Positions 12,268 through 63,030 of a DNA stretch of 64,000 nt are shown here, piece after piece; the stretch's first letter is position 1; the number at the start of each line of letters is the position of its first letter. The notes beneath the pieces were generated by a model. The model made no database searches and had not been told where the DNA came from. It saw only the letters and a list, made by a program, of their open reading frames with translations. Location of the stretch: contig CDPCPM010000026.1 in NCBI GenBank assembly GCA_976551045.1, forward strand, positions 6,076,001 to 6,140,000, written 5' to 3'. This DNA comes from Glaucostegus cemiculus (lineage: Eukaryota). The position numbers and the translations under genes were made by a program.

Positions 12268-12972
12268 TTTCCTTCCCTTGCCTCACCCCCATACAGGTTC
12301 TGCATCCCCGCATCCAGGGACTTTTGGTGAAGATCAATGTCATTTAGGACAGGGGCCTGAAGGACCTATTTTCAAATATTTGCTAATGGAACAGGCTTTG
12401 ATAGTTTCTACTTACAGTCTAATCAATATTTTAGTATTACAATTCTGTCACAGAAATTTTAATTTTCTTTGTTCTGACTTAGAGTCTTTCTCTTTCCATG
12501 CATAATGTCTTTTTATGTTGGGGTTGGGAACTTACCACTGGCGCTTGATATGAAAATCAATGTAAAATCTTGCAGCACTGTTATTAGATATTTTAAAGTG
12601 TTCAGTTTTCAATAGCAATGCATATCATGTACAATCACCCTGTTTTATTGCTATTGTATTTTTGAACTAGATTGACAGTTTTAATGGAAAATAGTTTGTA
12701 ATTGCATTTTCCAGTCTGCTTTGAACCATTTATTCATTGAACTACTTAGATCAAAATTGATATTTCAGTTGAGGGAAATGACTGAGTGGTGAATTATTGG
12801 GAAATCTTAAACCAACCCATTACAAGCCATAGGGTCACAAGCCTTTGGGGTGCTTATTCACCTAAATCTTTATCTTATTATTCCTATGTTACATCACTAA
12901 CCACACTTCAAGAGTATTTCACTGTCCTGGGCTTATGAACAATGCTGTATAAAATAACTCTTTCAAAATAAA

Positions 12973-13203
12973 AACGGGAAATGTTGAAAAAGTTTAGCAA
13001 GCCAAGCAGCATCTGTGGAAGGAGAAACAGTTATTGTTTCAGGTCTGAGACCCTTCAGCAGTCTTCTGCGTTCTGACAGAGGGTCTCTTACCAAATGTTA
13101 AGTCTGTTTCTCTTTCCACGGATCCTAACGATTTGCTGACTGTTTCCAGCATCTTCTGCTTTTTTTTTATTTCAGATTTCCAGCAACTGCAGTTTTTTTG
13201 ATT
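12973..13203. mobile_element. Palindromic Penelope-like element (two inverted pseudo-LTR ends)
   Basis: The two arms are approximate reverse complements, each with a decayed hammerhead motif (13028-13063 minus, about 13070-13105 plus). Direct repeat tttcaaaataaa at 12961-12972 and 13204-13215. Confidence 0.8.
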
Positions 13204-15702
13204 TTTCAAAATAAATCTCACTTTTAGATTTTGTTTTCAGTTATTTGCAATGTTACAATCTGACTCCAGGACCGCTTCCTCAATGTGCAAAGAAATGCCT
13301 TGTGTTTTAACAGCCATTGTAACCTTTTTTGTTGATATCATGATGCTAACTGAACTTTTTTTGGTAGATTTGTGATAAGTGAGTATCCATATTATACACT
13401 ATGTAGTCTCTATACCTGAATAAGAGAGCAGTTGAACCTTGCCATGAGTCCAAGTGAACTTAGTGACCATGGACCTCTGTCTATAGGTGGATCCATGTAA
13501 ATGGTGCTCCTCTGCAGTTTAATTTTACATATGGGGAGGAGCAGGTTCAAATCACTCCCCTCATTTAACCTGGAATGACAATACAAAGACCATGCGCTAA
13601 AAGACAGTGGACTAAATCTGGTGTCACAACTTTTGACTTCAAGGTTTGGCTTTTTGGATGCATGTCTGAAACTCTTTTTCATAAATATAGTATAATGACA
13701 ATATATTACACCAAACTGCAAAAGACTCGAGGAACTTAAGTGGTTACCTCCTTACAAAGCCTACTTTGTATTTTTTTTATTTACCAAATTAATTTAATAT
13801 CTTATGAAATACCCAGCTGTGTGGTGGTGAGAAAATTAATAATGAGGCATTTGGATGAGGCTTATGCTTTATCACCTTTCATTAACTCAGAATTGCTCTT
13901 GAACAAACAAGATTTTCATAAGTGCACCATGAGGAGGTGTCTCAGCCATGTGTGCTTTTCTATGCAATAGGGAAAGATCAACTCTAACATTAGTATCCAG
14001 CTGGCCAATAAAACAACTGATCCTAAAAGGGTACATTTGTGGCAGTTTTGATTTTTGTTGCTGTCTGTTAGGGCACACCATTTTGCTGTTTAAATTTTAC
14101 CCTGCCATCATCTATCCTGCTCCTTTTAAGCTTTTACACATAATTTGAAATAGCTTCAGTTGTTTTTCTCAGAGACCGTGACTAATTGCATTACTTGCAT
14201 CACTGTTTTTGTCCTATCTCTGATGGCAATTACTTATTTTCTTACCAGATAATATGAAAATTACAGCTACTTTAAGTTTGTTATTTTGTACTCTTAGTGC
14301 GCTTTTGAACATTATGACATAAGAATGTCCAATGAAATTTTAGTAATACTTCGCAACCAAATTCCACAGCTAAATGGACAGCTGCTATTCTAGTCAACTT
14401 GGAGAGATAAAACAGTTTATTAACACCTGCATTTACTTGTTTACCCTTAAATATCACAGGGTACTTTAATCACATTTATTTGACACCTAACAGTGTAGAT
14501 CAGATTTTCTCCAGGATCAGGATGTGATTATTCATTGATAAAAATGACATTTATAATAATTACTAAAAAGTAATTGTAAAAGTGAATACAATAAGTTTTC
14601 TCATCACTACTTTTCAGCAAAAATCTTAAATATATCTGTATTGATGTAGAGCCAGTAACAAGTTAACATTTTAAAAACATTTTTCTACCTGTTGTAATTT
14701 TGTTTTGCACAGAAAGAAAGACAGTGGGGGGAAAAGGCATCCTGATCAAAGTTGAACATCTCTTCAGATTTGGCTCCTCCCTTTTGAATTTAGATTTAGA
14801 ATAATTGCTAATCATAAAGAGTATCAGTATGGCATGGATTAAGCAGAAAAGCAAGCAATTGTGAATAATGCTAAACATACTTGCCTTGTTCATCATGTTT
14901 TCATGGAGACAGCTGACATTATGGAAAAGACTAGTAATGTATGAAAAGAATCAGGCAAATTAAGTTCAATGTATACTAACTTGCCTATAAAAAAAAACTT
15001 TAAATTAATATGCATCCAATTAAACTTGATGTCATGGTCAAGCTTAACTGGATAAGTAGGTGATGTACATCCAAATCCAGTTCCACATCTCTCCCCTGTC
15101 TTACCAACCAATCTACAAACTGGATTTCAGTGAATCGGGACCCATTTGTGGTGTGGGAAATCGTAATTATGTTGGAGTAGCCACAGGCCCTCCCCTTCTG
15201 TCTGTGCTCATTTTTTGTCTGACCCAGGGTTCTGGACACATGAGATAGTGTTAGTCTGCTTTCTGTCATGGCATCTTTTCTACAGTGACCCTTTCAGACG
15301 CTGCTGTGGGAAGTATGTGATAAAAAGTGGAACTGATTTTGCACGTAGGGAAAGAAAACAAAACATGGAAAGAATGTTTCCTGCTTGTTTTCAGACATTT
15401 GATAACCTTAATTGGCTCAGTCTGTCAACTCTACATTGATTGTAGTCACTAATAAAAGGGCTATTGATTGTCATTTTATTTAAAAGTGCTCCACATGGAC
15501 TACACTTCAAACTAATGTTATTACCACGTCAACCTTTTCCTGTTTCAGTGCTTTCTTAATATCATAAATAATACTGAATGCCAAATACTCTTTCTTTACC
15601 TTCTGTAAATGGTTTTCTGTTGGTACCTTTTGAGCAGTGAATTTTTTTGTTGTGTGTGTTGATAATGTATGCTAATTTCAGAATAATATGTAAATTATAT
15701 TA

Positions 15703-15903
15703 CAGATTCTCCCAGGTTATGGCAGGGTTCCATTCACATGAACTGTTCGTAACCCTAGTAGTTTGCAAGTCAGAAATACGGCTGCAAACCAAGTCCCAAG
15801 GCAGTAGAAGAAGCCGGAAAATCCATCCCACCCAGCTCCCAAACGCTTGTTCATTTGTAGAACCTGTACATAAGTCAGGCATTCGTAAACTGGGGACGGC
15901 TTG
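15703..15903. mobile_element. Tc1/pogo (Tigger-like) MITE
   Basis: TA on both sides; degenerate terminal inverted repeats cagattctcccaggttatg / (rc) caagccgtccccagtttacg; internal ttcgtaa-type subterminal repeats. Confidence 0.6.
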
Positions 15904-16419
15904 TATTTCAATGAAGATTATCCGCAAGATTTCTGTCACTAATAACATCTCCACAATCTTACAATATGGTCAGACTGAGAGCCAACATGTACAGCATTAT
16001 GTAAAAATTTGTTGGTTTACAATTGGAAATGGGAACCAAGAAGTACAATCATAGATTTTATACCTCAAATATTTGATCAGTTTAGGGCAGATTCTGGGAA
16101 GAAAAATCTATTCATTGTCTGTAACAATAATGTTTTAAAATAAAATCTTATGATAGTTAAGTAACACAAGCTGTCAAAGTCAGAAAAATCTGAACTGGAT
16201 GCAATCAAGTAACCACGCTTCATTCTGCCCCTCTATATAACATCCGTCACAGTTGCGCATGATGTGATATCCCCCAGCTAGCATCTTCCATCAAAATGAG
16301 CTTGAGAATGACAGTAATTCTTTCAAGACATTTTAGAAAAATATAGTGCATGTATATATTGTTAAGTAGTTTAAATACTTGAAGATTCTAGGGCCTGCTG
16401 TTTGAATCCTACCTTACTG

Positions 16420-16770
16420 GCATTTTTTTGAAAAATTATTCGTGGGATGCAGTTGTCACTGGCTCTTATTATCTGTCCTTAATTGGCACCAAACTGAGGG
16501 AACAGATAAAAGACAACCACATTAATGGGTCTGGAGTCACGTAGAGGCCAGACAAGATATGGTCAACAGATTTCCTTCCCTGAAGAACATCAGGTATGTT
16601 TTTACAGCTGTCCAGTAGTTTTGTGGTTACCGTCACTGATGCTAGATTTATTTAATTCAATTTAAATTTCCTAGCTGCAAGATAGGATTTGAACTCCTGT
16701 CTTTGGATCATTGGTCCAAGCTTCTGGATACTAATCCAGTAATTTAACCACATCTTCAAAAGCCACAGTA
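16420..16770 (-). mobile_element. Old tRNA-derived SINE
   Basis: Reverse B box ggatttgaac and the body motif cagatttccttccctgaagaacat, which I recall from shark SINEs. Confidence 0.55.
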
Positions 16771-16834
16771 CCCATTCTTTTGATTTGATCTAAATTCCTT
16801 AACATGTAACCACTTTGTCATTGCACACAAAAGA

Positions 16835-17360
16835 GCATGCACTTCTGCAACATCTTTCCCATCCTCGGGCCATCTCAAGTATTTCTCAGCTGATCAAGTA
16901 CCTTTTGAAGATCTAAAACAAAAACAGAAAATCCTGGAAATACTCAGCAGGTCAGGCCACATCTGATGACCCATTGATTATTTCCAACATTTTCTATTTT
17001 TGTTTTAGATTTCCAGAATCTGCTGGTTTTTTTTATTTTCACCTTTTGAAGATGTGCCTTTTTTTTGTCAGCAAGTTCTGGGGGCAACATTAAAATTAAT
17101 GGCTAGTTAATCTATTTCAGTGAAGAACAAGTATGATCCCAAACAGAAGGGAAGCTCTTGTTTTGAGGCAATCTTCCATGGGATTTTCTAGAGAAGATCT
17201 TACATTAACATTTCATTTGAAAGATGATATCTTAAGTAATGCTCATTCCCACCGCACTACACTGAAATATCACTTAAGATCATGTACTTGAGCTCTGGAC
17301 AGGAACGTGACCCACAACCTTCTGACTCAGGTGAGAGTATGCAGTTGATCCAAGCTGACA
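16835..17360 (-). mobile_element. Deu-type SINE interrupted by a PLE insertion
   Basis: Reverse head cccacaaccttctgactcaggtgagagt...ccaagctgac; Deu body and L2-like tail; split at 16913-17040. Confidence 0.65.
16913..17040. mobile_element. Short palindromic PLE end with 13-bp TSD
   Basis: accttttgaagat at 16900-16912 and 17041-17053; arms aaaacagaaaatcctggaaatactca / tgattatttccaacattttctatttt. Confidence 0.85.
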
Positions 17361-20005: not shown

Positions 20006-20084
20006 AAGGTTAAATAAAGGAAATAATAATAAAACACAACCAGCCACAACAGTTTAGAATTGTTGAGTGAAAATTACTGAATTT

Positions 20085-20340
20085 ATAGCAAGAAATGGCA
20101 GATGATGGAAATCTGAAATAAAAATGGAAAATGTTAAAAATATAGAGCATGTAGGGCAGCATGTGAAATTGAGTTGACGTTTCAGTTTGTTGATCTTTCG
20201 TCAAAACTCAGACAAATTAGAAATCAAGTGTGTGTTAAATTGCAGAAAAGGGGATGGGTAAAGAGAACAAGGTTATGTTGTAATTGGGTGGAGACCAAAA
20301 GAGATTGAATGACATGAAGGATGATAAGAGAGGGTGGAGA
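20085..20340 (-). mobile_element. PLE pseudo-LTR with hammerhead-like motif at 20171-20209
   Basis: Minus strand: gagtt-TTGACGA-aagatcaacaaact-GAAAC-GTC-aactc. Confidence 0.75.
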
Positions 20341-28995: not shown

Positions 28996-31690
28996 TGAAA
29001 TGGCTGATGCAGAGTTTGTGTACATAACCTTTAACAAGATCCATTGCAGACTGAAACACACAAGACAGGAAGAGCTCACACCATATCAGTCTAATTTATT
29101 CAAAGAGTCTACTTCGGCTAACCACAGGCAAGTTAAGGCACATGTTATACATGTGTACTGCAGTGCATCCCTTTTTATCAAAAATTTTAGCACATGTATA
29201 AATTCACATGAGCTGCAGATTTTAGTTGCTTCATTATTGATGTCAGTTGTGGATTTACCAGGTTTAGAGCATCAACTGTCTCCACACAACGTTATTTTCT
29301 TGTTTTGACTCCCTTTAGGAAACTTGCGCGTTGAACAATTGTGGGATTTACTGAAGGAACATCACGGAACATCTTCCCTGTTCTCCTGAGCATAGCACAC
29401 TATAATCATATGGTCCACGTGAATCTTTCTGAATCGCTCGCTTATTACTACTTCACCTTTCCTTTCAAATTGGACTGATCAAACAAATACTGAGAATGCT
29501 GGAGATACCCAGCAGGTCAGACTGCAGCTATGGAGAGGGAACCAGAGTTAATGTTTCATGTGAATAACATCTCATCAGAATTGATGAGAACTAAACGAAA
29601 CTCAATTTTGTCCAGACACTTCTGTCCATCAGCTGTATGTCATCTGTATATCCTGTTGTGCAGTGTGCCATTGTTCTATAGTTTAGAAGAAATGCTCCAA
29701 GTCAAGGTTTCATGGCTGTATTTGATCAGCAGTACATGAGCTCTTTCCTCAATATCCCCATTGCCCTGTGAATTGACCTTTCTACATCTCCTCTTGAAAC
29801 TAGGTAGCAGTGAGAAGTGAAGAAGTATTTCATTCTATTGTTCTTCATGAATCATTAAAACTAATATAATCTAAGTTATGGATCATTGTCTAACTTCCAG
29901 AATACCATGTGTGGCGAGCATACATCTTAATTTTTCTATTGTTACACTCTGTGCCCCACACTTTCAATGGCTCCTGATTAACATTTAAAGGGTTGGCCAC
30001 AGATTTTTCACAATTATTTATGTGGACCCACTGGAATGGTCTTGTAGGCCACTTTGCCCTCTGGACTGGCATTCTAGGAACTATGTGCTGCAGACTTGAC
30101 ATACTGTACTGATCAGTTCTTTTTCTTTGTCAATGCCAAGTAAAAAAAACACATCCTTCAGCTACTACCTTTTATATTTACTATAACCAAAGAATCTGCA
30201 TTGAATTATTCTCTCATCTTGCTTTGCAGTTCCTTCAGCATTTTTACCCTGTCTACCCAATCTGTGCAGCCATGGACAATTCATCCAACCTATATTTCTT
30301 CATTTGGACATGTGTCAGATTCACAAAATCAGTCCATCTGCTTCTCCTGTGCTCATATGCTTACCTCGACATCATGTCTTTTTTGCATAATCTGGACAGG
30401 GCTTCTCTATTGATAGGGGTTTTATCATGAGGTGGTCTAAACATGGATTCAGCCGTAGGACTTTGTTATGGTGGTATTGAAGCAGGAAGGTGGCTCACCT
30501 CTGTGAACTTGATGCTACCAGTGTAGAAAAAGCAGACTTCAGTTTCAGGATGGCCAATAGTGGCTTCTCGATAACGAATTCTACAGTTAAAGCACCTTGC
30601 TGCTCTGAACTGACATGCTTGTACTGAATGATTCTCACAAGAACAGTAGCAGGGTTTTCCACTACACCAGCCTTCTATCCCATTCATGTTCATAGATGCA
30701 AACTCTGTTGGAGTCTTACAGTTGCTCCTGCTATTGGACAATATACTGTGTTTGCTCCAATGCTGTGTGCTGGTTGTAATTGCATTGCATGCTTAGAGGC
30801 CATTTCCATTGATGCAGTTGTCTTGCATGTCCATTAGAACATTAGATCTAGTGTGTTGAATAATTTGAACTGGATGTCCTCATTATTGAGGTAATGCACA
30901 GCATAATTCATTGCATGCAATCCAAGAATGAGCCAAAGTTACAATGCTGTCATAGACTTTCTTTTTAAGAATGCCTGTGTAACTGCTAATCATCTCACTT
31001 AACCTCTGGTTATGGGTTCCAGCCTCATAGCTCTCCACAGTCTCAAATACACTGTATTGGAATGGTTTTGCATATTTTCTATTCCTTCATTAAATGGGAC
31101 ATAACTTGCAAGTAAATTTGCTAACAGCACATGAGTATCTGACCTTATGCACATGATTGTCCTCTTGCATTTGTGAGTACTTTCATCCTCGTTCTCTATT
31201 TTGATAATTTAACTTGTCTTAATAGACATCTCCATCTGTTCAATGTATGAATGGAAGTATCCCTGTGCTTCTTAATGCTGAGATTACTGACATGATCACT
31301 CTGACACTGTACTGCCATTGTGTGTGGTCTTTCAGTTTGACGGTTACTGGGATCATCTTTTTACTTGTAATAAGTTTGCACTACTGCCTTTTCTCTTCTT
31401 CATGCTCGAGTCCACTTCTTGGATGGCCCGATCAATCATGAGTCTCTCAGTCTTGCCCTATGGTCACATGATATCATTTAATCACTCAATATCTTTGACA
31501 ACCTCATCACTTTTCATGGCAGTATCTCATCCTCATCACCAGTGTAAGTTCTGTATAATCAGTGAGTTCTTAACCTCCAATAAAGCTGCTGCAGAGAGCA
31601 TAGACTGATGCATGTGAGCCATAAGGAGCCCAAAAACACAAGTCTGGCTTTTCGAAGGTTCCACTCAGCAATAAGCACGTGACAAAATAT
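28996..31690 (-). mobile_element. Degraded, internally deleted Gypsy LTR retrotransposon
   Basis: Minus-strand order: 5' LTR about 31543-31690; PBS tggtgatgaggatgagat 31524-31541; gag (YFHSYIEQME, DTHVLLANLLA, NNEDIQFKL, CYCSCENHSVQACQFRAARCFNC); RNase H end (KPLLAIL); integrase (WPTRPFQWVHI, DNDP, FLLNYRT..H.TTG, IHVDH); 3' LTR about 28996-29162. Confidence 0.85.
29480..29600 (-). mobile_element. PLE pseudo-LTR nested in the Gypsy element; hammerhead-like motif at 29545-29583
   Basis: Minus strand: caatt-CTGATGA-g-atgt-tattc-acat-GAAAC-ATT-aactc. Confidence 0.75.
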
Positions 31691-31699
31691 GTCCCAAAC

Positions 31700-31866
31700 G
31701 AAAAGCAAAAGCTGCAGATGCTGGAACTATGAAATAAAAATAGTAAAAGCTGACAGTAGTCAGGAGGTAATTTCTGATGGAGGGTTATCAAACTGAAACA
31801 TCAATTCGTTTTCTCTCTCCACAGATGCTACCTGATCTGCTGAACATTTCCCAACTTCTCTGCTTT
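31700..31866. mobile_element. Palindromic PLE end
   Basis: gctgcagatgctggaac... followed by ctgatggagggttatcaaactgaaacatc...tctctccacagatgctacctgatctgctgaac. Confidence 0.75.
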
Positions 31867-32425
31867 AGTGTCATAACTGACATAACAGAAACCTACTTTG
31901 CACTTCAGCTGAGAGCCATGTCTACGGCAGAGGTCACATTACAGCTTGGATGGTGGGTCGATCATGGCAGACAAAAATTTTGACAGCCAAGTGAAGGCAG
32001 CCATTCCTTTATAATCATTGTTAATACGTGAATACTTTATTTATGATTCAGTGCATGGGAGAGAACACAAGTTGAAGAATTCAGTGTGACGTTCTTTGCT
32101 GAATCATAAGTAATCAGTACTTTTCTAGGAACAATAACACTCATTGTCAACTTTACTGTGAAACAAAATATGAAAATGCCCAAACGGATGGAACAAAACC
32201 TTCTCACCAGCTAATGGACTTAAATAAAAATAAACCAACAAAAAGTATTCAAAACACTTCAAACTGTTGTTCACTTCCAATACTGTCAGGAAACCAGCAC
32301 AGTCATTATAACTCATAGTAACATCTACAAACAACAATTGTGACAATAAGATCTTTTATGGAATAAGTCAGCTGGATCTCGGACTTGGAGCTTGTGAACT
32401 TCATTCTAAGAAAAATTAAATTCAA

Positions 32426-32577
32426 ACATAAAAAGGGGAAGTGCTGGAAATACTTCTATTGAAGGTCATTGATCTGAAACCTTTCCTCCATTTCTCTTTC
32501 CACAGATGGTGCCTAATCCACTGAGTATTTCCAGCATTTTCTGTTTTTATTCCAGCATTTATGATTTTTGATTTTTC
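32426..32577. mobile_element. Palindromic PLE end
   Basis: gtgctggaaatact ... agtatttccagcat arms; imperfect 14-bp direct repeat aaaatt(aa/gg)attcaa at 32412 and 32578. Confidence 0.7.
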
Positions 32578-33043
32578 AAAATTGGATTCAATCTTAGTTG
32601 TAAAAAGATGAACATTCTTAACTTCACTATGCTTAGGATAGCAAACATACATTTGAATTAGCCAGAGATGCAATGGTTGCAGAGGATATTATAAATTTCC
32701 AAAGGATCGTGTAAGATTCTTTGACAGATGAATACTGCTATAGGTCAGATTACAGTTTCCTTATAAAGTATAGTTATAATGCTCTTCAATAATCATGGTT
32801 CATGCGGAAGAGTTGCAGAATTTTCACTAATAAAATAAAAGAAAAGAAAATAGCAGATAATGTACACATGACTTCCTGCAATGAGCTATCTACAGTCTCC
32901 ACTTCTATAGAAGTACAGACTGAGAATATAATGCAGAATGCTGAGCCTTCCCTTGAATCTTTCACTCTCTGTTTAGAAAGTAGTTAGAATGTAGCACTCC
33001 TTGTCTTATTAAGTGAGTAATGACTGAAGCAAGTTATTCCCTT

Positions 33044-33171
33044 AGAGAAGCAAAGGACTGCAGATGCTGGAATTTAGATGAAAAACACAATGATGTTGGA
33101 GGAACTCAACAGGCCAGGCAGCATCCATGAAGAAAAGCAGGTGGTCAATGTTTTGGGTCAGGACCCTGAAG
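33044..33171 (-). mobile_element. PLE end with 13-bp TSD
   Basis: aagttattccctt at 33031-33043 and 33172-33184 flanks ctgcagatgctgg...ggaggaactcaacaggccaggcagcatc. Confidence 0.85.
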
Positions 33172-35925: not shown

Positions 35926-36020
35926 TTAAGATTAAGATAACTTTATTAGTCACATGTACATTAAAACACACAGTGAAAGGCACCTTTTGCATTGAGTGTT
36001 CTGGGGGCAGCCTGCAGGCA
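35926..36020 (-). mobile_element. SINE 3' tail fragment
   Basis: Reverse complement matches the 3' end of the SINE at 43770-43861. Confidence 0.75.
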
Positions 36021-36021
36021 C

Positions 36022-36385
36022 GGTATGTCCTCCCTTATCAAAAAGGCAACACCACCGCCTTGCTTACCTGTACCTCTGTCACACCTGTAGCATATGTATC
36101 CTGGAATATTGAGCTGCCAGCCCTGCCCTTTTCTCAGCCATGTTTCTGTTGTGGCTATAACCTCCCAGACCTCAGAGCCAATCCATGCTCTGAGTTCATC
36201 CGCCTTACCTGTTAAACCTCGTGCATTGAAATAAATGCAGTTGAACTGGGTATTCCTTTCCCTGCCTTTACTCTTCTCCTGGCTATCCCGATTATTAAAC
36301 TTGCTCTCACTGACTACTGCTTTATGCCATGACTTGCTCCTGCTCAGAGTCCCACCCCCCTGCCAATCTAATTTAAATCCTCCAG
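36022..36385 (-). mobile_element. CR1 ORF2 N-terminus (apurinic-like endonuclease)
   Basis: CIYFNARGLTGKADELRAW...IATTETWL...LNIPGYICYRCDR...GGGVAFLIRE (within ORF 35961..36470). Confidence 0.92.
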
Positions 36386-36517
36386 ATTCTAGAGATGGGT
36401 CATTGACCCAAAACATAACCTTTGTTTCTTTCTCCATTGATGCTGCATGACTGCAGAGTCCCTCCAACATCTTCTGTTTTTATTTCAGATTATTAGCATC
36501 TGCAGACATTTGCTTTA
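36385..36517 (+). mobile_element. PLE pseudo-LTR end
   Basis: gggtcattgaccc hairpin followed by aaaac, then ctccattgatgctgc...ttcagattattagcatctgcag. Confidence 0.7.
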
Positions 36518-41024: not shown

Positions 41025-42769
41025 CTGGGGGAGAAAAAGCACTGCTGGACCTTTATATCGTAGCCAAAATAACAACGTTATGAATAAATCATGCCACTGA
41101 ATTATCTCAGTCATTTCTTGGCTGTTGGGGAAATCAAAGACCCTGCATAAACTCGTTTAACTCCTATGGGGATAAATTTCCTATACTCACCCAGCAGCTA
41201 AGTTTGCTTTTCCCATGCAAAGTTAAATAAAATATTACTGTAAGGTCATAAAAATAATTAGTTGTGTCTCATCTCCTCTCTCCCTGGAAATCAAATTTGA
41301 CCCTTATGTTTTATGTATGTTTTTGCACCAAAGACATGACTATGCCAATGGCTGCAATTACACAATACACCTTGTGTCCACTGATGACTTTTTCATGGGT
41401 TTATATGACAGAAGGACTAACTTAAAAAAAATTAGTAAGTCTTTTAAATGATGTATAAAATGTAACTCTACTTTTCGGTGGGCTTAAAGGTGATTTAATA
41501 ATGCATTCAAAGAATTCTAGAAAACTTAATCTTCAGTGAACTGGCAATTTAATAGTGAAAGCATGTTATGTTCTTTAAAAGCTTCATGTGTATTTGAAAT
41601 TGCAATTAAACCAAACTATGTAGTCCTGACCCACAAGCAGAAGTGCTTAATGAAATGAATTTCTTCTCCAAGTTGGGCTAAACTTCATCAGAATTCCATT
41701 TTGCTGGCTCTGAATTATAAATGAAAATACACTGTTATGAATATCCAGTAATTCCACTTTTTCCTTCCCATGAATTAAAAAGTCCCTTCATGTCAACAGA
41801 AAACTACGTTCACACCAGGTGCACTGGCAGGACGACAAGTAATACTCCCCTACTCTGTGTACTTTGCTTTAAGAGATGAATCATTAAGACGACGGAAGGA
41901 AAAGGCTTTAAAGACCAGATATGACTGAATGAGATGGAATGGTAGTTAGGAAGGTGGTGAGTGAAAAAGAATGAAGCAGGAGGGAATGAGCAGATTGTTG
42001 AAGGAGCAATCAGTCAGGAAGATTAAGTGGAAAGAGGAAAGGCCAGGAGAGAATATGTAAGATAAAAATTCCTGTGACAATGAGGATAGTTTCCAGACCT
42101 CAGAAGTAATCATTAGCAAAAATAATTCAGATGAAAGGATTGAGAACAAATATGGAAAATTAGCTTTTGAGGGTTTTGTAAGAGTGAATAAATACACATT
42201 TCTTCTTTGTACCAAATGTAATGTTTATCTTGCTGTCAATATTCTGTTTGAAGACCCTTGGGTTCTAATCTTCAAAGTTAACTTGGTTGTTGGGGGGAAA
42301 AAAATCACATTCTAACTTGAAGGGAGGGATATGAATCCAAGAAGTCATTGCATGTGAATTGACAATTTGGATTTGCATGGTATTTAAAGAAGACCAGCCT
42401 CCATAATCTATGTATGAGCTAATGCACAATGCTATTTTCACTCATTCTATCTTTACATTTTTGGCCTGCAAACACTTCTCTATTTCTCTTCACAATTTAG
42501 AAGCAGGTTATGTGCTGGTTCTTCCAAAACATTTTATATGGGAGAATAGAATGTATATCTACCTGTTCTGCTGTTCCTGGTGACATGCACTTGTCTTTTG
42601 ATGTGTCGGGTAATGGACTCACAGTTGTGATCAAGTTCCTTAATGACCTGTTTTGGGATGTGATGATGGAAGTGGCAGCCTTTCCTACACCAATGGTCCT
42701 ATTATTTAGGGAACTGAAAACAATGATAAATTATAGTTCCACACAAAATCATTCAGGAGGTCATTTGGC

Positions 42770-42950
42770 TGAAAAATAGAAAATGCTAGAAATACTCAGC
42801 TGGTCAGGCAGCATCTGTGGAAGAAGAAACTGAGTCAATATTTCAGGTTAAAGATGTTTTGTTAGAACCAGGAAAGTGAAAAACCAGTTAGTTTTAAGTT
42901 GCAGAGAGAATGAATAGAACAAAGGCAATATCTCTGATAAGTCAAGGCCA
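42770..42950 (-). mobile_element. PLE pseudo-LTR end
   Basis: aaatgctagaaatactcagctggtcaggcagcatctgtgga. Confidence 0.75.
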
Positions 42951-43447: not shown

Positions 43448-43563
43448 GCCCAGGCCTCTTTAGTGCCAGTTCCATTGCCCTCAATTCCTAAGTCTTTCAA
43501 AAGTTGATCTACCTCCTCTTTAAATACCTTCCAAAATCTCACCTCCACAACCCTTTCTGGCAG
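43448..43563 (-). mobile_element. CR1 3' fragment, closely similar to 44013-44128
   Basis: Shares gtctttcaaaa-ttgatctacctcctctttaaataccttc...ctccacaaccct with the nearby CR1. Confidence 0.75.
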
Positions 43564-43861
43564 GCATGGTAGTGTAGCGGTTAGCATAATGCTATTACAG
43601 CGCCAGCGACCTGGGTTTAATTCTGGCCGCTGACTGTAAGGAGTTTTACGTTCTCCCTGTGTCTGAGTGGGTTTCCTCCGGGTGCTGTGGTTTTTGAGGG
43701 CCACATTCCAAAGACATACAGGTTAGGAAGTTGTGGGCATGCTATGTTGGCACCAGAAGCATTGTTTCACTTGCGGGCTGCCCCCAGAACACTACACAGA
43801 AGATGTATTTCACTGTTTGTTTCAATGTATGTGTGACTAATAAAGATATCTTATTTTATCT
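43561..43861 (+). mobile_element. HE1/V-type SINE
   Basis: tRNA-like head (gtagcggttagc; ggtttaattc), V-domain taaggagttttacgttctccc, aataaa tail. Confidence 0.88.
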
Positions 43862-43924
43862 AAAATATAAACTTTACCCTATCTTCATACACCTTTATTA
43901 TGCAACAGATATAGTGTACATTTC

Positions 43925-47404: not shown

Positions 47405-47505
47405 GATAGAAAAAGCAGAAAATGTAGGAAACATTCAGCAGGTCAGGCAGCCTTTGTGGAAAGAGAATCAGTCAATGTTTCAGGTTTGAGTCCCTTCATC
47501 AATTC
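47405..47505 (-). mobile_element. PLE end within a CR1 remnant
   Basis: Minus strand: TTGATGA-agggactcaaacct-GAAAC-ATT-gactg. Confidence 0.75.
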
Positions 47506-49484
47506 TCTTGAATTTTTTATTGGATTTATTCATGATAATCATAAATATACCATATAGTTCCAGCTTCCCCTGCAAGAGGGAATATTTTTCTGTGCCTATC
47601 CTTTCATTAGCTTAGTCATTCAAGGTGTGTGCCATTGCCAAGTGGTGTGATCACTTCTTCAGAGGCCATTTGCAGTTCTTGCAGTCAGCACTGAACTTGG
47701 TGATGGACAGCCATTGCCAGTATGCAACATGGTTGATTTACCACAATCCAAGTCTAACATCATGAAGACCCCAATTGTAGAGATTGGTCATGTACTAACC
47801 CAAACCTGTGAGAAACCTATTAAGCTGTTGCCACAAGTCCAATTAATTGTTAATCAATGGTTTCAGCAATGAGCCTTGAAGGATACTCCAACCTATAGTT
47901 TCTCAACCTCTACTCTGTTTTCTGTTCTGTAGTCATCTTACTACCTACTGATAGCTACTTGTCCCCTGATTCCCCAAGCATTGATCTTAATCATGAATCA
48001 ATTATGCAGTGCTAACCCAAAGCAAATCCAGAAACATTGTCTGTTGGTCTGTTCTTGCTTACCATTTCTTTTCCTTCAATAAGTTTGGCTAAGCATGTCC
48101 CTTCTTTTGGGCATTTGTGCTGACTGCTTTTGATTGTATTTTTATTCTCAATATTTTCAATTACATTTTTAAGTATAAGAGAATTGTAAATTAGATTGCA
48201 GCAATTCAGTAAGTTAATGGGAGTTTATTCCTGAAACCAAAATATTAACTATTATAAAGAATTTAAGTAAAACCAAAAAACTTTATCAAAATGAATCTGA
48301 AGTTAGCATTCAGTATTTTTGAGTAATTCTCCATTAGTCTATATCAAAAGCATTTGCTCTCGTTTTTCAAACAGCTGAAATTAAATTTGGAGCTGGGGTG
48401 ATATCAAAAGGTAAAAAATATGTAGGTGGTATCTCAATGGATTGTGCTCTGCAGGCCTGAATTTGCTCATAAGATCCAGGATTTTTTTTTAAAGAGTTCA
48501 CAATTAGTAAGTCTACTGCCAACCATGCAACAGGATGTAATTTAATTAATCCCAGAGAAAGAGAAAGATCATGATGACATCTTGAAATACTATTGAAAAT
48601 CTTTCTCACAATTTAGAAGAGTTATAGCTATATGTACTGAATATGATTTAATCAAATGCATACTTATTTAATGATCTAATATTGTAAGGGAAAAGCTCAG
48701 CAATTGGGCTACATTAAGTTATAGGCAGAAAAGCCAATTGATTGAGATGTCATTTCACATGTTCTGAAAAAATATTTGAAGCCTGCATTTTGGAATTTGC
48801 GTCAGTTGCTGTATTTGATAAACTGCAATTACGTTCATGACAAAGACCACTGATTTATAGTTATCACCAAAAATGGAGAAACTTGCAAAATTCAATCCTC
48901 AAAACAAGGCACAGAATCTTGTAATAAAAATGGAATCTGGATTAGTCACTCACTCAAAACTATTGATCCTAATTGTAAACAGATGGGATTGTGAAGAATG
49001 ACCTTGAAACTTTGGGAAATGTCCTGGAATCCCTTATAACACACCAAAATTGGTCTTATAGGCCCATTAGCTATTAAATATTGTTATTGTGGCCAATGAT
49101 TTCCTCTTCCTTGAATGAGGCGAGGAGCAGTTATACAGCAATGGTTTAAAGACAGAAGATAACTGTTTATATCACAATTCTTTGCATTTGTATATTCCTT
49201 ATGACAAAGTATATGAATACACCACTTTCTCAAATAACACTGAAGTATCCACATTAGTAGTCAAGACAAAGGAAAGGCAAACACTTACATCTTGAAATAA
49301 ATCATAATGAATAATTGATCAACATTTCTACTTGAATATCTATGGAAAGGTCTTTGTGATTATTCTCTCTATATAAATGCTGCTGAGCACTTCCAGTATT
49401 CTAACAGCTAGAAATTATAATGCATCCTAAAGTGAGATTGTTCAGAGGGGTAGGAGGGTGATGGAATATTCTATTCTTTGAAGC

Positions 49485-49952: not shown

Positions 49953-50607
49953 GTGGCCAGCCACTTCAATTCCACATCCCACTCCCATACTGACATGTCT
50001 GTCCACAGCCTCCTCTACTGCCATGTTGAGGCCAGATGCAGGTTGGAGGAACACCTTGTATTCTGCCTTGGTAGTTTCCAACCAAACGGCCTCAACATTG
50101 ATTTCTCTAACTTCCAGTAAATCGTCCCTAACTTATTCCCCCTTCTTCCCTCCCCCCCCTTGTCTTCCCTCATTCATTTGGCCCCCTCAACCCTTCTCCT
50201 TCCCCTCCCCTGCCCTCATGACCTTTCTATCTATTCCCCACCTCCTTCCCTTTATTCCAAGGTCCACTGCCCTCTCCTGCCGGATTCCTCCTCCTCCAGC
50301 CCTTTGCCTCTTCTACCCATCACCTCTCAGCTTCTTGCATCACTCCCTTTCATCCCCCCTCCCCCAGCCACCTACCTTCCCCCTCACACCTGGACTCACC
50401 TATCACCTGCCAGTCTGTGCTTCTCCCCCTCCCCCTCCCCAACCTTCATATTCTGGCTTCTGCCTTCTCTTTTTCCAGTCCTGATGAAAGGTCTCGACCC
50501 GAAACACTGACTGTTCATTTCCCTCCATTGATGCTGCCTGATCTGTTGAGTTCCTCTAGCATTTTGTGTGTTGCTCCAGATTCCAGTATCTGCAGAATCT
50601 TTTGTGT
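49953..50607 (+). mobile_element. Penelope-like retroelement 3' end: GIY-YIG endonuclease C-terminus plus pseudo-LTR
   Basis: 49953-50120 reads VASHFNSTSHSHTDMSVHSLLYCHVEARCRLEEHLVFCLGSFQPNGLNIDFSNFQ*, followed by a C/T-rich UTR and a hammerhead motif. Confidence 0.9.
50476..50513 (+). ncRNA. Minimal type I hammerhead ribozyme motif (cleavage triplet mutated)
   Basis: cagtc-CTGATGA-aaggtctcgaccc-GAAAC-act-gactg; stem I cagtc/gactg is perfect. Confidence 0.7.
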
Positions 50608-50729
50608 TGAAGTAAGTCAAAGCTGGCCTGAGTGGGGGAGGTGGGTTAAAAGTTAAAGGAACCTATCTGAAGAAAAATTAATGCCCTAAATCCTTGGGAA
50701 CTGGATAAATTGGTGAGGGTCCTTTAACC

Positions 50730-56420: not shown

Positions 56421-56424
56421 CAGA

Positions 56425-56987: not shown

Positions 56988-57858
56988 ACACACAAAATGC
57001 TGGAGGAGTTCAGTGGGTCAGACAGCATCTATGGATGGAAATGAACAGTCAGCGTTTCAGATCAAGACCCTTCATCTGGCCTGAAAGAGGGGAAATAGCC
57101 AGTTTAAAGGGGTGGAGCAAAAATGGCAAGTGATAGGTAGATCCAGTGGGGGGGTGGGAGGGTGTTGAAAAGCAGATGGGGGAGGCGAGAGTGGGAATGA
57201 TGTCGGAAGCTGGGAGGTGATAGGTGGACGTGACAGAGGGCTGAAGATGATAGAATCTGATAGAAGAGGAAGGTGGAGCATGGAATAAAGGGAGTGAGGT
57301 GGGGACAGCAGATAGGATCAGTGGGGAAGGAGAAAGAGATGTGGTGATGGGGGCTAGGGTATCAGGAGGGGGAGGAAGAGCTCCCCCTCTGTCCCTTTTC
57401 TATTTTCTCTGGTCCCCATCATCCTGCCTCTTTCTGCACCCACACCCTCTCCATCTGTCCATTACCTGCACGTTCCTCCCACTGATTCCTGTCCAAACTC
57501 CCTCCCTTTATTTCATGTTCCACCTCCCTTTCTTATCAGACTCCACCATTTTCAGCCCTCTGACACTTCCACCAGTCACCTCCCACCTTCTGACTCTGTT
57601 CCAACTCTCCCCTCTCCCATCTGCCTATCACCCCCCCCCTCACCTGTATCCACCTATCACCCACCAGCTCTTGCTTCACCCCTTCCCCCCACCTTTTCAC
57701 ACTGGCTCTCTCCCTTCTATCTTTCAGTCCAGATGAAGGGTCTCGATCTGAAACGTCAACTGCCCATTTCTCTCTATAGGTGCTGCCTGACCCACTGAAT
57801 TCCTGCAGAGTTTTGTGTGTTGCTCCATATTCCAACACCTGCAGTCTTTTGTGTCTCC
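56988..57858. mobile_element. Large inverted (palindromic) PLE insertion with 10-bp TSD
   Basis: Purine-rich left arm and pyrimidine-rich right arm; aaagttttat at 56978-56987 and 57859-57868; hammerhead-like motifs at 57046-57083 (minus) and 57725-57762 (plus). Confidence 0.88.
57725..57762 (+). ncRNA. Hammerhead ribozyme-like motif with CAGAUGA core variant
   Basis: cagtc-CAGATGA-agggtctcgatct-GAAAC-GTC-aactg. Confidence 0.6.
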
Positions 57859-57879
57859 AAAGTTTTATTCAGCTTCACT

Positions 57880-58125
57880 GCTTCACTCAGAGGATGCTGA
57901 ACCTTTAGAGTTCTCAGCCCAAAAGTGGCTTGAAGACTTTGTTGCTGGGTAGAATCAAGAGAGAGAGAGATTTCTGGATATTAAGGGAATGAAGGGAAAT
58001 AGGGTTAGTACAGGGAAGTTGCACTGAGGTAAAACATCAGCAATCACCCAATGAATGTCAAGGTAGAATCAAGGAACCAAATGGCTGACTCTGTTTCTAT
58101 TACGAGTATTTTCATGTTCATTTAT
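57880..58125 (+). mobile_element. CR1 3' end, degraded
   Basis: ttcactcagagg (FTQR)...gatttctggatattaagggaatgaaggg...aatggctgactctgtttctat. Confidence 0.65.
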
Positions 58126-58231
58126 GTCAAAAAATGTAGATCAGCAGCAATGGCATGGGTACATCCCATTATTCACACGCGTTTTGTACCAGGTGCAATT
58201 AATAAGAAATTTTAGAAAAAGATGCACAACC

Positions 58232-58671
58232 TGTTCTTGGATCTGGTTACTTTCAAATCCACAGGTTCTTTCAGGAGTCCAGGAATGAGTTGAAAACAAC
58301 TTGGTGCTTCAAAGTTTTATTGGAAAAGTTTAAAAACAAAGGAACCGTCACTGAGCACATGGGACTAGCTTTGATGAGCCGAGACAAAGGGAACAAATGA
58401 TGAAGCTCAGGCCAGGGGAGATGAGCAAGAGAGAGATTAACAAAAGGACGACACCTTTTATACCTGAGGTAAGAGATGATCTTTAGCTAACAATAGTCCA
58501 ATCAGGAAACCTACTAGATACTTGTGGCCAAACCAACCAATGAGAAAGCCACATATTCACCTGATGGATGAACCAATAAGCTAGTAAGCGGCTATTCCTT
58601 GTGCAGCCTCTTGAAGTATATTAAACACTATACATGTTAAAAAAAACTAATTAAAACAGTTGAATCCAACA
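58232..58671 (-). mobile_element. Probable solo LTR
   Basis: TGTT...AACA ends; on the minus strand three ATTGG (CCAAT) boxes (58574, 58538, 58498), then TATAAAA (58456-58462), then AATAAA (58316-58321), in U3-R-U5 order. No TSD resolved. Confidence 0.55.
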
Positions 58672-60826
58672 CTGTCAACAAGATTGCCAAGACTGAGAAG
58701 AAGGATATAATGTCTATTATGGGGGGGAGGAGCGATAGGGTAGGTTCACTAAAATATTACCAAGATTTGAAGGGTTGAATAATAAAGATAGATTGAATAA
58801 AATTAGCTCGTCTTTCCTTGGGTGTAGAAGATTAATGCTTGAAAGATTTGAAATGATAAAAGCATTTGATACAGTAGCTATCAATAAGGTTCAATTGTTG
58901 TCTTCAAGATTAAGATCAATAGATTTTTGTAAGGTAAGAGTATCAAAGGAAATAGATCAAAGGTAAACAGACTGCATTAAGGAACAGATCAGCAGTGATT
59001 TTACTGAACATAAGAATGGTCTTGTAGGATTATATTGACACTCCAGTTTCTATAATCTACCTGCCATCATTCTGGTTGATATAACAGATTATCTCCCCTG
59101 TAGTGCAGTTGCCTAATCAGTATCAAATTCTACAAATCCTTTGGTACCCAGAAAGATGCAGCAATGATGAGGTGCTCAGGAGCCAGTGAATGTTTTTGCA
59201 GAAACTCACATCCGCAAAGTTCAGGTGAGGGTAATGTGAAGAGGGTTTGGCGAGAGATTGTTGAGGGTTGTCATGTTGAGATTGGCATGGATGTTGGGGT
59301 CTCAATTGTTAGGAAATGGAGGGCCCAAGAGGAAGTTCTCAAAAGATCATCTTTTTAGATATAAAAGGCATTGATCTGAAGCCACTTGCCAGCACTGGAC
59401 AGCAAAAGGTTGGGTCCTGTTCAGATAAGACACCTTTAAGTTTAGTTGAGGCTGGCCTCACCTTCATTGGGATGAACTACCTCTTCAAGAGTTGGTTGTG
59501 CACCCCTCTCCTCTGTGCACTTGTAGACGCCTCAGCACATTATTGTGTCATCTGGATGGAAAGCTGCAGACCTTGTTACCAATGTGGTAGGTTCCAACTC
59601 TTAAATAGAAATCAGTTTTCTGATGAAATTCTACAAAGTAGAACACATAATATTTGTGCTGTCTAGGCCCAAACATTTTAATTTTTGATGCCGCACTTTC
59701 TTTGTTGCTCTATCTTATGTTTCATTATTCAAGGACTTAAATAGATTAAGCTTTCTGTAGGTGTAGAATGAACATGCAAAGCTCCAGGCATCCAGCAGTT
59801 GTAACCGAACCTAAAGCTCAGTTTGTAACCTGCACTCAATATCTTCATAGGACAGCCCTAATATGTAGGACGAAAGAAAATGAAAACCTGAGTGCATGAA
59901 AAAGCTTGTGAGCAGATTGATATCACATAAATGAAGGAACCTTCCTGTCTTTAGCACCTGTATTATATACCCTTAGGACATCGTCTCATTTGGGGCAATT
60001 TACTTGGATTAGAATTAAAATTAACACATTATCATGAAAGCCCTGTGTGGTTAATTTAACATAAAATGAAGCATGATTGCACAAATTTCTTTGGGTAATT
60101 TGAATGTTTGAATCTTCGTGACAGTCGCTGAGAGTTGTGGGAGCCTGGATCCATAAGACAGCAAATAGTAAAAACAGTGAAAGCAGCCGGGAGTTTCACT
60201 GATGAACTAAAACATCTTTCAATCGTTGAGCGACTCAGTGCAGAAGATGTATCCCTTGCACTGTTCAGAATAACCGATTTCAAATCATAATACCTTTGAA
60301 ATTGTTCCCCTGGGGCATTAAATGACTTCTTCAGAATGTTAAATGAATATAACTGATAGGAAAGAGCCAATGAACAGATTCACCACATTATTCATCCCCA
60401 CCTTCCTTCATATTACTCAGTTAAGGAAAACCCTATTAATCCCACTGGCTGTATTATTCCTCAGAGGGCACACGATATAGAGAGTTAAAGTGAGTCGGAT
60501 GGCAGTTTGCTTATTTAATGAAAGACTGCATGAACGGTTTGCAAAATTAGATTCAGTGATGATATCAAGGTAATTTTATTTTCTGGCAGTAAAGGCTTTA
60601 AAAAGCTGGGATTGGCATAGGACCTCTTGACAAACAGCCGTACCAGAATGGGAAGGAGATTCCTGCAATGGATCAGTAGTTTCTAGCAAATAGTAAAACA
60701 ATACTGCTTAGGATCTGGAATTTTTAGACTTTCAGTGTAAGTATTGGCAAATGTTGGAAACACTCAGCAGGTTAGGGCAGATGTAAAAATGTTTTTGAAG
60801 TCACTTATGACATTTTATGTCACTTG

Positions 60827-61380
60827 TGTAATATAGTGTGTGCAGCAGCTGTCTGAGTTGAAGTTTTGAATAAACCAACCATAACTAGTTTGAGCTCCTT
60901 GTGTCTTGTGTATAAGTTTGTACACTCTGAAATGAAGCTTGTTAGAGGTTATGACCTCACTGAGCGCACATTCCTAGTATTGGTGACACGGATGGGGTAG
61001 CAAAGATGATATTTCCAGTTATGGAGTTGGGGCAGTGATGAGCCATGTCATGGGCAATGGCCATAAAAGATCTACTGCTTACACTTCACACACATTGACC
61101 AAAAGAGGAAAAGAAAACATACCCGTACTGAGAAGTAGACATTGGCAATCATACTTAGAGTTACATTGCTTAATCAATTTTTGCTGGGAATACCATTTGC
61201 ATACAAGCTGCTGTTATCCTTTCTGGGAATGAAGTCTGCCATTCATAGGATGGTGGCATTAAGGATGCAGAGATGGAATACCCTCCTTCTCAATTTAACC
61301 ATGATATTAAGTGCAGAACATCAAAAAAAAACCAAAATGCTGCTGTGGATTCTTTGTCAAGACTACCTTATAAAGAAGCC
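60827..61380 (+). mobile_element. Gypsy remnant: LTR, PBS and RNase H fragment
   Basis: LTR about 60827-60978; PBS tggtgacacggatggggt 60981-60998; then SSYGVGAVMSHVM...AYTSHTLTK, KLLLSFLG...RMQRW, AVDSLSRLP. Confidence 0.85.
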
Positions 61381-62189
61381 ATGGCCAACACAGAAAATGA
61401 AATTTATACTCCTGGATTTTGCAGGATTTGGAAAGTAAAACTGGTCAAATTTACAGTCATCACCCCAGGTAAAGGACAGTAGCAGTGGGACTTCTACACA
61501 TGAGTTCCAAATTTGCAAGCCATGACTTGCCACAGGGCAACAGGCTGCTGTCTGAAGCTGGAGTACAATGAGGGAGTGATGGGTTGAGGTGATTTTCCGC
61601 ACCTATGTTGGAATTCCCTCAAAGATCCTGCACTGGACAGAGAATGCTCACCCATTAATTTCAATCTAATGAAACAGTTGGGAGGGAAAAGTAAGTATTT
61701 GTCCTATATTTACTGGAGTTATTTGAATATAAGTCATTAATGACTAATACACATAATAAATCTCAGAAGTAATGAAACTGAGTCCTGAAGCTGTTTAACA
61801 GCAAAACATTAAAATCTGTGTTAATATTTCTTCAATTAATCTGTGAAGCTAAATTGTTTCAAAGTCAGATTTCTATGTCATTATATCACAAACAATTTTT
61901 CCCACATGTGCTGTTTAGAGCATATGGCAAAGTAACATCAACGTAGTGTGACCCAGATCCTCTGAGGGTGAATCCTAGTGGTTACCTTGTGAGGGATTCC
62001 AATGCTCTTTCATCTGTTCTGCAATAACTGTACTGTAGAATTGTATTCCAGTAATAACATGATTACTACAGAACAGAACATGAGTGCTAATTCAATACAG
62101 GCTTTTACTTCATTTATTACCGTTGATATTATTTGACTTGTTAAATATTTTGTTTTACTGAGCATAAATCTGGTATTTGTCCACTGTAA

Positions 62190-63030
62190 AATTTACTTCC
62201 AACGCATTAAGCTGCAAGTTCAATTTCTGCTCCAGTGATCTGGCTAAGAATGCAATGTTGTACCAAGGGAGAGCTACATTGTCAGAGGTGCTGGCAGGTG
62301 ATGAAAGGTTGGCCTGAAGAGTCATCTGCACCCTCTGATCTAAAAAAAACAATCCACAGCATCCTTCAAAGTTAACCCAGGTTTCCACGCCAATACCTGT
62401 CTCTCATTTAACATTTCTGAAGAGGTTATTTGATCATTATCATTTTGGTATTTGTGGGAGCCTAGTGTACTCAAATTTGATTATGCTTACCTACACTTTG
62501 ACTACAGCAACACACAAAATGCTGGAGAAACTCAGCAGGTCAAGCGGCATCTATGGAGGGAAATGAACAGTCAATATTTTGGGCCGAGACCCTTCATCAG
62601 GACTGGAAAGCCAGAATAAAAGGGGAGGGGAGGACCACGAGCTGGCAGATGATAGGTGAGTTCAGGTGAAAGGGGAAGGTAGGTGGGTTGGGTGGGGTAG
62701 GGGAGAGGTGTAAAAGGAAATGATGTGAGAAGCTGGTAGGTGATAGGTGGAAAAGGCAAAAGGCTGAAGAAGAAGGAATCTGATTGCAGAGGACAGTAGA
62801 CCACGGAATAAAGGAAAGGAGGTAGGCAAGGGCAGGGGAGGGGGAAAGAGAAAGGGTGAAGGGGTCACAAGATGAGGGAAAACAAAGGGGGGGGAACAGA
62901 GTGGAGTGGTTACCAGAAGTTAGAGAAATCTAACTGACTGCAATTATTTAATTAACTGACTACAGAAGTATTTAATATATGTTGCAAAATGCTTTGGGAC
63001 AGTGTGAAGACCACAACATGAATACTAAAT
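62190..63030 (+). mobile_element. Deu-type SINE interrupted by a PLE
   Basis: agggagagctacattgtcagaggtgc...tttgtgggagcctagtgt...; the tail atgctttgggac resumes after the PLE. Confidence 0.6.
62508..62930 (-). mobile_element. PLE pseudo-LTR; hammerhead-like motif at 62568-62605
   Basis: Reverse complement matches 50100-50575. Minus strand: cagtc-CTGATGA-agggtctcggccc-AAAAT-ATT-gactg. Confidence 0.88.

What the first reader, a model, noticed from the sequence alone, without database searches (positions are those of the whole stretch)
12961..62930. Dispersed family of hammerhead-bearing Penelope-like ends with covarying stems
Seen: at least 9 motifs of the form stem I-CUGAUGA-stem II-GAAAC-GUH-stem I', at 13028, 20171, 29545, 31769, 47467, 50476, 57046, 57725 and 62568. 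Stem I covaries (cagtc/gactg vs gagtt/aactc). Stem II varies while keeping pairing (ggg/ccc, agg/cct, atgt/acat). Stem III is reduced to the palindrome ACGU. The motif follows a GIY-YIG C-terminus at 49953-50120. Established: PLE pseudo-LTRs carry minimal type I hammerheads thought to cleave as dimers. No copy here is fully intact (much of the decay is at CpG), but the consensus is. About one PLE end per 5 kb implies a very large genome-wide load if this window is typical. This is the most system-like signal in the window, but the class is known rather than new.
Basis: partly seen in the sequence, partly recalled or inferred. Interest (0 to 1): 0.7.

Follow-up and report, generated by a model that had tools for sequence, protein, structure and literature searches.

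The report
Fossil Penelope ends with mutated hammerheads
These motifs are real but worn-out ends of a known kind of jumping gene (a Penelope-like retrotransposon) that carries a small self-cutting RNA motif, about one end per 5 kb of this genome; two very successful subfamilies carry changes in the motif's catalytic core and the copies do not start at the predicted cut site, so cutting was likely not needed for the element to spread.

Summary
All nine motifs are present. They are decayed pseudo-LTR ends of an endonuclease-positive Penelope-like element (RT, CxxxxCxxC linker, C-terminal GIY-YIG) with a minimal type I hammerhead, a published class. Only 1 of 131 hammerhead-bearing copies is intact, and no intact ORF turned up. 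Covariation is weaker than claimed: not significant on the window copies, atgt/acat is a single-copy accident (1 of 46), and two pair changes separate subfamilies. "The consensus is intact" fails for two large subfamilies, U4A (2,220 exact hits) and A9C (2,270), against 4,936 canonical. No excess of copies starts at the predicted cut site (0 of 25 near-full-length copies); starts pile up about 30 nt earlier, at the 5' edge of stem I. Head-to-head pairs carry the ~35-bp tail on exactly one arm (45 of 52), which fits priming from both strands. The scan noted this family before, in this genome and in other sharks, including twin priming. No cleavage assay was possible.

The parts
12962..13062 (-).
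13062..13202 (+). Partner arm with a second hammerhead remnant and the tail; pair flanked by a ~12-bp target-site duplication
16903..17032 (.). Miniature head-to-head pair without hammerhead (16903-16965 minus, tail-less; 16967-17032 plus, tailed), ~13-bp target-site duplication
20088..20215 (-).
29476..29591 (-).
31707..31871 (.).
32424..32564 (.). Further end 32460-32555 (plus) with a weak inverted stub at 32424-32454
33042..33167 (-). Tailed end truncated inside stem II (A3-like by eye)
36385..36516 (+).
42750..42877 (-).
47408..47508 (-).
49953..50120 (+). C-terminal 55 codons and stop of the PLE GIY-YIG endonuclease
50121..50475 (+). Pyrimidine-rich 3' UTR/pLTR, ending in a pyrimidine tract before CAG
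50476..50513 (+). Minimal type I hammerhead remnant, subfamily A1; core start 50481, predicted cut between 50508 and 50509; G16.2 and U16.1 are changed, so it is predicted dead
50514..50610 (+). 3' part of the end: first codons of the ORF (inferred) and the ~35-bp tail
56988..57858 (.).
62501..62929 (-).

Best explanation
The motifs are decayed, 5'-truncated ends of a Penelope-like retrotransposon family whose pseudo-LTR holds a minimal hammerhead; the copies were likely laid down by reverse transcription primed at two internal start sites on RNA that was likely still uncut, so self-cleavage was likely dispensable for spread and these copies are likely inert. SHOWN: homology to RT + GIY-YIG elements; two alternative 3' ends ~35 bp apart; head-to-head pairs with the tail on one arm and often a target-site duplication; long copies that run through both hammerheads unbroken; no excess of starts at the cut site; two high-copy subfamilies with U4A or A9C cores; an excess of starts at the 5' edge of stem I. 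INFERRED: (1) the endonuclease cuts both strands and each 3'-OH primes a cDNA, one from the distal and one from the proximal start site, and the two are joined head to head; (2) many templates had their 5' end about 4 nt before C3, and priming on the pLTR copy at the RNA's 5' end then yields the common 100-140-bp stubs that begin at the hammerhead (a start site at the YYANWYY-like YCAGTY motif is my preferred reading, a splice acceptor the rival); (3) U4A and A9C lower cleavage; (4) the ORF starts at an ATG 22 nt after the predicted cut.
For: Element: RT motifs, CxxxxCxxC linker and GIY-YIG upstream in relatives; 996 homologs at E<=1e-20, mostly 800-950 aa, with PF00078 and some PF01541. Two 3' ends: bimodal at model 115-124 and 145-155. 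Pairs: 41 of 66 head-to-head neighbours lie within 100 bp vs 2 of 41 tail-to-tail. Tail on exactly one arm in 24 of 29 scorable pairs (P=5e-4, 12 of 41 unscorable) and in 21 of 23 from an independent set (P=7e-5, 9 of 32 unscorable). Flanking duplication score >=10 in 14 of 33 pairs vs 2 of 33 controls. Uncut templates: of 36 near-full-length candidates 25 gave a 5' start; 14 start upstream of the cut, 0 within +21..+36, the cut being at +28 from C3. Truncation hazard is 0.009/nt at the cut vs 0.044/nt at -10..+2 and 0.011/nt just upstream (257 starts). 39 of 106 short copies abut an inverted arm vs 3 of 88 long ones. Core variants: 4,936 canonical, 2,220 U4A, 2,270 A9C, vs 227 for a control transversion; 94 of the first 100 listed copies with A2's upstream carry A at position 4. 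Literature: the anole PLE protein cuts and extends both strands, starts RT at two sites bounding the tail and inserts equally well with dead hammerheads (PMC11167929); single mutants in the CUGA turn have low activity (PMC9901934).
Against: The youngest subfamilies (A1, A3, ~10% diverged) keep a canonical core, and C3-G8, G5, A6, G12-A14 and A15.1-U16.1 stay the majority state in all five subfamilies, which argues for selection on the fold. A2 and A4 may have been mobilised in trans or complemented in mixed dimers. Most single copies show no second arm (4 of 72 tail-less singles vs 1 of 65 controls), so twin priming is not shown for every insertion. One pair scored tail on both arms and 6 on neither. 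The pile-up bin is inflated by old B copies whose upstream is too decayed to align and by under-detection of short arms; it is weak in A1 (3 of 16) and A3 (2 of 13). U4A and A9C were not assayed in this fold. A cleaved RNA might simply be a poor template, so absence of a footprint does not show absence of cleavage.
Confidence: 0.7

Rival explanations
1. The hammerhead was an essential, active dimeric ribozyme in all master elements: it cut tandem transcripts to set the RNA ends, and U4A and A9C are tolerated variants.
For: The rest of the core and the palindromic stem III persist across subfamilies spanning ~10-20% divergence; two pair changes are compensatory between subfamilies; natural core variants with residual activity exist (PMC3088659); the anole PLE hammerhead cleaves when protein is present (PMC11167929).
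Against: 0 of 25 near-full-length copies start at the cut and 14 run through it; every copy with sequence upstream of its 3' hammerhead came from RNA uncut there; A4 also loses two stem I pairs; no read pile-up at the site in RNA of another species (weak test).
Confidence: 0.2
2. The ~140-bp stubs are a separate non-autonomous SINE- or retrozyme-like element with a fixed 5' end at stem I.
For: Most A2, A4 and B copies in the unbiased sample begin at stem I (15 of 21, 8 of 14, 42 of 67).
Against: The same subfamilies have long copies with 3' UTR and endonuclease (L234, L265, L279; window 57493-57858); other starts are spread continuously; pair centres differ from copy to copy; no tandem hammerhead arrays were seen in 14 inspected loci.
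Confidence: 0.1
3. The mirror arms arise by self-priming on an antisense template (PMC3846280) or by fold-back after a single priming, not by priming on both strands.
For: Proposed in print; junctions often overlap by 1-6 nt (14 of 41 pairs have a negative gap).
Against: A fold-back copy should end where the first arm ends, yet the arms differ by the tail in 45 of 52 pairs, and either the long or the short arm can carry it.
Confidence: 0.2
4. The motifs were domesticated by the host as working ribozymes or regulators at this locus.
For: The family is abundant in RNA reads of a related organism, on both strands.
Against: None of the nine is intact; 1 of 131 sampled copies is intact; decay follows CpG; reads on both strands fit passive read-through.
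Confidence: 0.02

Closest known systems
Minimal hammerheads (min-HHR) of metazoan PLE pseudo-LTRs (Cervera & De la Pena 2014, PMC4209133; main text read, figures and supplements not seen)
   Same: Type I layout, no real stem III, palindromic 15.2-16.2, extra nucleotide between A9 and 10.1, G10.1-C11.1 in the A families, thousands of solo copies in several consensus families.
   Different: That text names U3-A8 as core variant, not U4A or A9C; it names fishes, coelacanth and Xenopus, not sharks or rays; its counts (4,000-9,000 descriptor hits) compare with 4,936 exact cores here but ~0.3 million decayed hammerhead-bearing ends.
PAc, Poseidon element of Anolis carolinensis (Frangieh et al. 2024, PMC11167929; main text read)
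   Same: Hammerhead next to the ORF start, two 3' ends bounding a tail inside the first codons, no trace of cleaved RNA ends.
   Different: Here the linker is Neptune/Nematis-type; the inferred ATG lies 22 nt after the cut instead of before it; no intact copy was found; the one-arm-only rule and the start pile-up are counted here from genomic copies.
EN+ PLE insertions with inverted pLTR, one-sided tail and TSD (PMC3846280, PMC8557442; passages read)
   Same: Head-to-head arms, tail on one of the inverted pLTRs, duplications of 8-10 bp there and ~10-16 bp here, partial tandems.
   Different: Described there qualitatively and explained by antisense self-priming; here many pairs are miniature (130-250 bp) and hold 82 of 266 sampled ends.
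Drosophila virilis Penelope (PMC2377424 passages; PMC4209133)
   Same: Its intron ends at the 5' side of helix I; here a pyrimidine tract plus CAG sits at the same place in all five subfamilies.
   Different: No shared upstream exon was found in the short copies, and no splice joint was among the listed joints.
Non-LTR retrozymes (bioRxiv 10.64898/2026.07.22.740005; abstract, introduction, methods part and passages read)
   Same: Hammerhead-bearing, PLE-derived, reported in one chondrichthyan.
   Different: Retrozymes are head-to-tail arrays with complete hammerheads; these ends are dispersed, solo or head-to-head, and decayed.

Membership tests
EN+ Penelope-like elements | Single ORF with RT and C-terminal GIY-YIG endonuclease | tested here: met
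   RT and EN pieces in order in relatives; homologs with PF00078/PF01541; RVT_1 E 4e-4, below the Pfam cut-off; met on broken copies only, no intact ORF among 150+150 best hits
EN+ Penelope-like elements | Pseudo-LTR from partial tandems; pLTR runs into the ORF start | tested here: met
   L163, L285, L290, L292, L298, L302
EN+ Penelope-like elements | Inverted 5'-truncated arm, optional 30-40-bp tail, TSD | tested here: met
Neptune clade | CX2-5CxxC linker between RT and EN | tested here: met
   CNRTKCYTC-type motif; shared with Nematis per PMC8557442
Neptune clade | RT phylogeny with named clade references | not tested
   no named PLE references among the hits
Minimal type I hammerhead | CUGANGA and GAAA core, NUH site (subfamilies A1, A3, B, majority state) | tested here: met
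   H17 is U in A3 and B
Minimal type I hammerhead | CUGANGA core (subfamilies A2, A4) | tested here: not met
   U4A in 22 of 33 A2 copies and 94 of 100 listed; C at position 9 in 19 of 24 A4 copies; A4 can also be read as a C inserted before A9
Minimal type I hammerhead | Intact core in the nine window copies | tested here: not met
Minimal type I hammerhead | Stems I and II with covariation | tested here: inconclusive
   pairing far above slid controls but not above shuffles; two changes between subfamilies; atgt/acat rejected
Minimal type I hammerhead | Self-cleavage as a dimer | not testable with these tools
   needs an in vitro assay
Non-LTR retrozymes | Head-to-tail arrays with a complete hammerhead in each unit | tested here: not met
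   none in the window or in 14 inspected 10-kb loci; not excluded elsewhere in the genome

The most novel reading that the evidence does not exclude
The fossil record of this family reads out the Penelope insertion cycle in vivo. The RNA begins at the 5' edge of the hammerhead and is copied uncut, from two internal start sites onto both strands of the cut target, so the genome fills with hammerhead stubs and one-tailed mirror pairs. [quoted passage not shown]
Probability: 0.35. Interest if true: 0.6.

Novelty: new member of a known kind. Interest (0 to 1): 0.35.

Why it matters
The class is published and these copies are inert, so the finding as stated is ordinary. Its use is statistical. The role of the PLE hammerhead is still open in print (PMC8557442, PMC11167929), and a genome with about 0.6 million ends lets that question be tested by counting. 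Natural U4A and A9C subfamilies give ready constructs for asking whether cleavage matters, and the start pile-up at stem I and the one-tail rule make sharp predictions for the insertion mechanism.

Tried and rejected
Rfam scan: no hammerhead family hit. Pfam on the window peptide and on two EN pieces: nothing. Search for an intact ORF: longest open frames 395 and 530 aa among 150+150 hits, against 800-950 aa in homologs. Loci sharing sequence beyond the tail (L041 group) share both flanks over many kb, so they are segmental duplications, not a new element. 'Every insertion has a hidden second arm': not supported. 'Cleavage sets the template's 5' end': rejected on present data. 'Short copies carry a shared spliced exon 1': none found. 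atgt/acat subfamily: rejected. One search used a mis-registered stem II and is replaced. The mixed-family start list at the end was not used because it is biased by subfamily divergence. Sequencing runs: no RNA holder listed for this organism. Raw RNA reads of another, coded organism laid at 80% likeness cover the family on both strands with no pile-up of ends at the predicted cut; these are fragmented libraries with many copies summed, and only 15 of 64 and 15 of 194 joints were shown. Lunse et al. 2016 (dimer cleavage) was not held; I know it only from the review PMC6765202, and it or the unseen supplements of PMC4209133 may already list U4A/A9C variants. Paper searches with no report of these variants, of the stem I start pile-up or of twin priming in PLEs. 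The possible exon at 60132-60287 was not identified.
Full report
Observation. The nine motifs are at the stated places. A profile seeded on eight of them found no hit in the reversed window. Refined on 68 genome copies it gives 19 ends in the window. None of the nine keeps both core halves and the cut site. Rfam has no hammerhead hit here. The frame at 49953-50117 matches the C-terminus of 800-850-aa proteins found with the family's RT region.

The element. The window is G000:C26:6076001-6140000 of a 2.85-Gb genome. That the host is a shark or ray comes from the scan's earlier notes and my recall of its repeats; I did not test it. Thirty relatives of the 50476 copy share the 3' end and stop at varied 5' points. 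Longer ones carry RT motifs, a CxxxxCxxC linker and GIY-YIG, which places them with the Neptune/Nematis type (PMC8557442, passages); no tree was built. Near-full-length copies show the pLTR running through the tail into the ORF; by eye the frame opens at an ATG 22 nt after the predicted cut. No intact ORF was among the 150+150 best protein hits.

Load. In 120 arbitrary 10-kb stretches, all from large contigs, there were 247 ends and none in the reversed control: 2.06 +/- 0.15 per 10 kb, or about 0.6 million genome-wide by extrapolation. Of these, 131 in 1.26 Mb cover the hammerhead, and 1 of 131 is intact. The exact pattern CTGATGA-N12-20-GAAACGT occurs 4,936 times against 160 for the control.

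Subfamilies and covariation. Clustering on columns outside the ribozyme gave A1, A3, A4, a mixed group later split as A2, and the old B group; non-CpG divergence is 0.10-0.13 for A and 0.20 for B. On 14 window copies pairing beats slid controls but not shuffles (28 of 500; covariation 57 of 500). The atgt/acat case is one copy in 46. Two changes between subfamilies keep pairing: 2.1-1.1 C-G to U-A, and 10.1-11.1 G-C to G-U/A-U. A3 has a mismatch in stem I, and A4 keeps only three stem I pairs.

Core variants. CAGATGA (U4A) gives 2,220 exact matches and CTGATGC (A9C, or a C inserted before A9) 2,270, against 227 for a control transversion. With A2's upstream as anchor, 94 of the first 100 of 444 matches have A at position 4, so this is the subfamily state. 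Both subfamilies have copies with endonuclease upstream. In a canonical hammerhead single CUGA-turn mutants have low activity (PMC9901934, passages), though some natural variants keep a little (PMC3088659, section 8 and passages). I did not find these two variants in the texts searched, but could not see Lunse 2016 or the supplements of PMC4209133.

No footprint of cleavage. With C3 as 0 the predicted cut is at +28. Of 36 near-full-length candidates, 25 gave a 5' start; 14 start upstream of the cut and none between +21 and +36. Three start at -3 or -2, and two more do so by the profile alignment. Over 257 unbiased starts the truncation hazard is 0.009/nt at the cut, 0.044/nt at -10..+2 and 0.011/nt just upstream. 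In 39 of 106 short copies an inverted arm lies directly upstream, which fixes the end. The pile-up is strong in A2, A4 and B and weak in A1 and A3; decay of B inflates it. The spot is a pyrimidine tract plus CAG in all five subfamilies. It fits an initiator (consensus recalled) and also a splice acceptor like the one D. virilis Penelope has at helix I (PMC4209133); no shared exon was found upstream of short copies.

Mirror pairs. Head-to-head neighbours lie within 100 bp in 41 of 66 cases, tail-to-tail in 2 of 41, same-strand in 7 of 63. The tail is on exactly one arm in 24 of 29 and 21 of 23 scorable pairs; 1 had both, 6 neither, 21 were unscorable. Single ends split 83 tailed to 75 tail-less, 26 unscored, and mostly show no second arm. 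Target-site duplications flank 14 of 33 pairs against 2 of 33 controls, including three window pairs; 57046 and 57725 are one insertion. The one-sided tail is in print (PMC3846280, PMC8557442, passages). The anole protein cuts and extends both strands and starts at two sites bounding the tail (PMC11167929, main text), so priming on both strands is the simplest reading. I reached it before the look-up; other agents reached it in other sharks (e1-9964995), which is not independent support.

Verdict. A real, very abundant, inert family of a known kind. The points worth keeping are the two core-variant subfamilies, the missing cleavage footprint and the start pile-up at stem I, which together favour a hammerhead that was not needed for spread (confidence 0.7). 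Interest 0.35.

Noticed in passing
window 992-1207 / 2138-2353 and 957-993 / 1229-1265: Long near-perfect inverted repeats (216 bp at 97%, 37 bp at 100%), possibly a young DNA transposon or MITE.
   Followed up: no
window 43563-43646 and 63147-63230: tRNA-like SINE heads, resembling V-SINE/HE1 of cartilaginous fishes (name recalled).
   Followed up: no
window 5909-7473, 35961-36479: Fragments that look like LINE (CR1/L2-type) RT and endonuclease frames (labels recalled).
   Followed up: no
window 60132-60287 (+): Short frame that may be a host exon; no Pfam or significant PDB match.
   Followed up: partly
L046, L068 (G000:C1:6820152, C3:3415216) and L056 (C2:3662304): Intact-core minimal hammerheads with different stem II and flanks, probably unrelated PLE families.
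   Followed up: no
subfamily majorities, positions 16.2 to 1.3: The six bases around the cut read GTCGAC in A1/A2/A4 and GTTAAC in B, both palindromes; H17 and 1.1 change together. One event, may be chance.
   Followed up: no
3' part of all ends (window 50555-50562 and 50583-50590): A TCCAGCAT-like box precedes each of the two 3' ends, as if the start signal were duplicated.
   Followed up: partly
L131-L137 (G000 C1, C3, C4): Copies with well-kept CpGs inside multi-kb segmental duplications.
   Followed up: partly
L153:3306-6279: The inverted arm sorts with A2 while the main arm looks A1-like, a possible two-template insertion.
   Followed up: no
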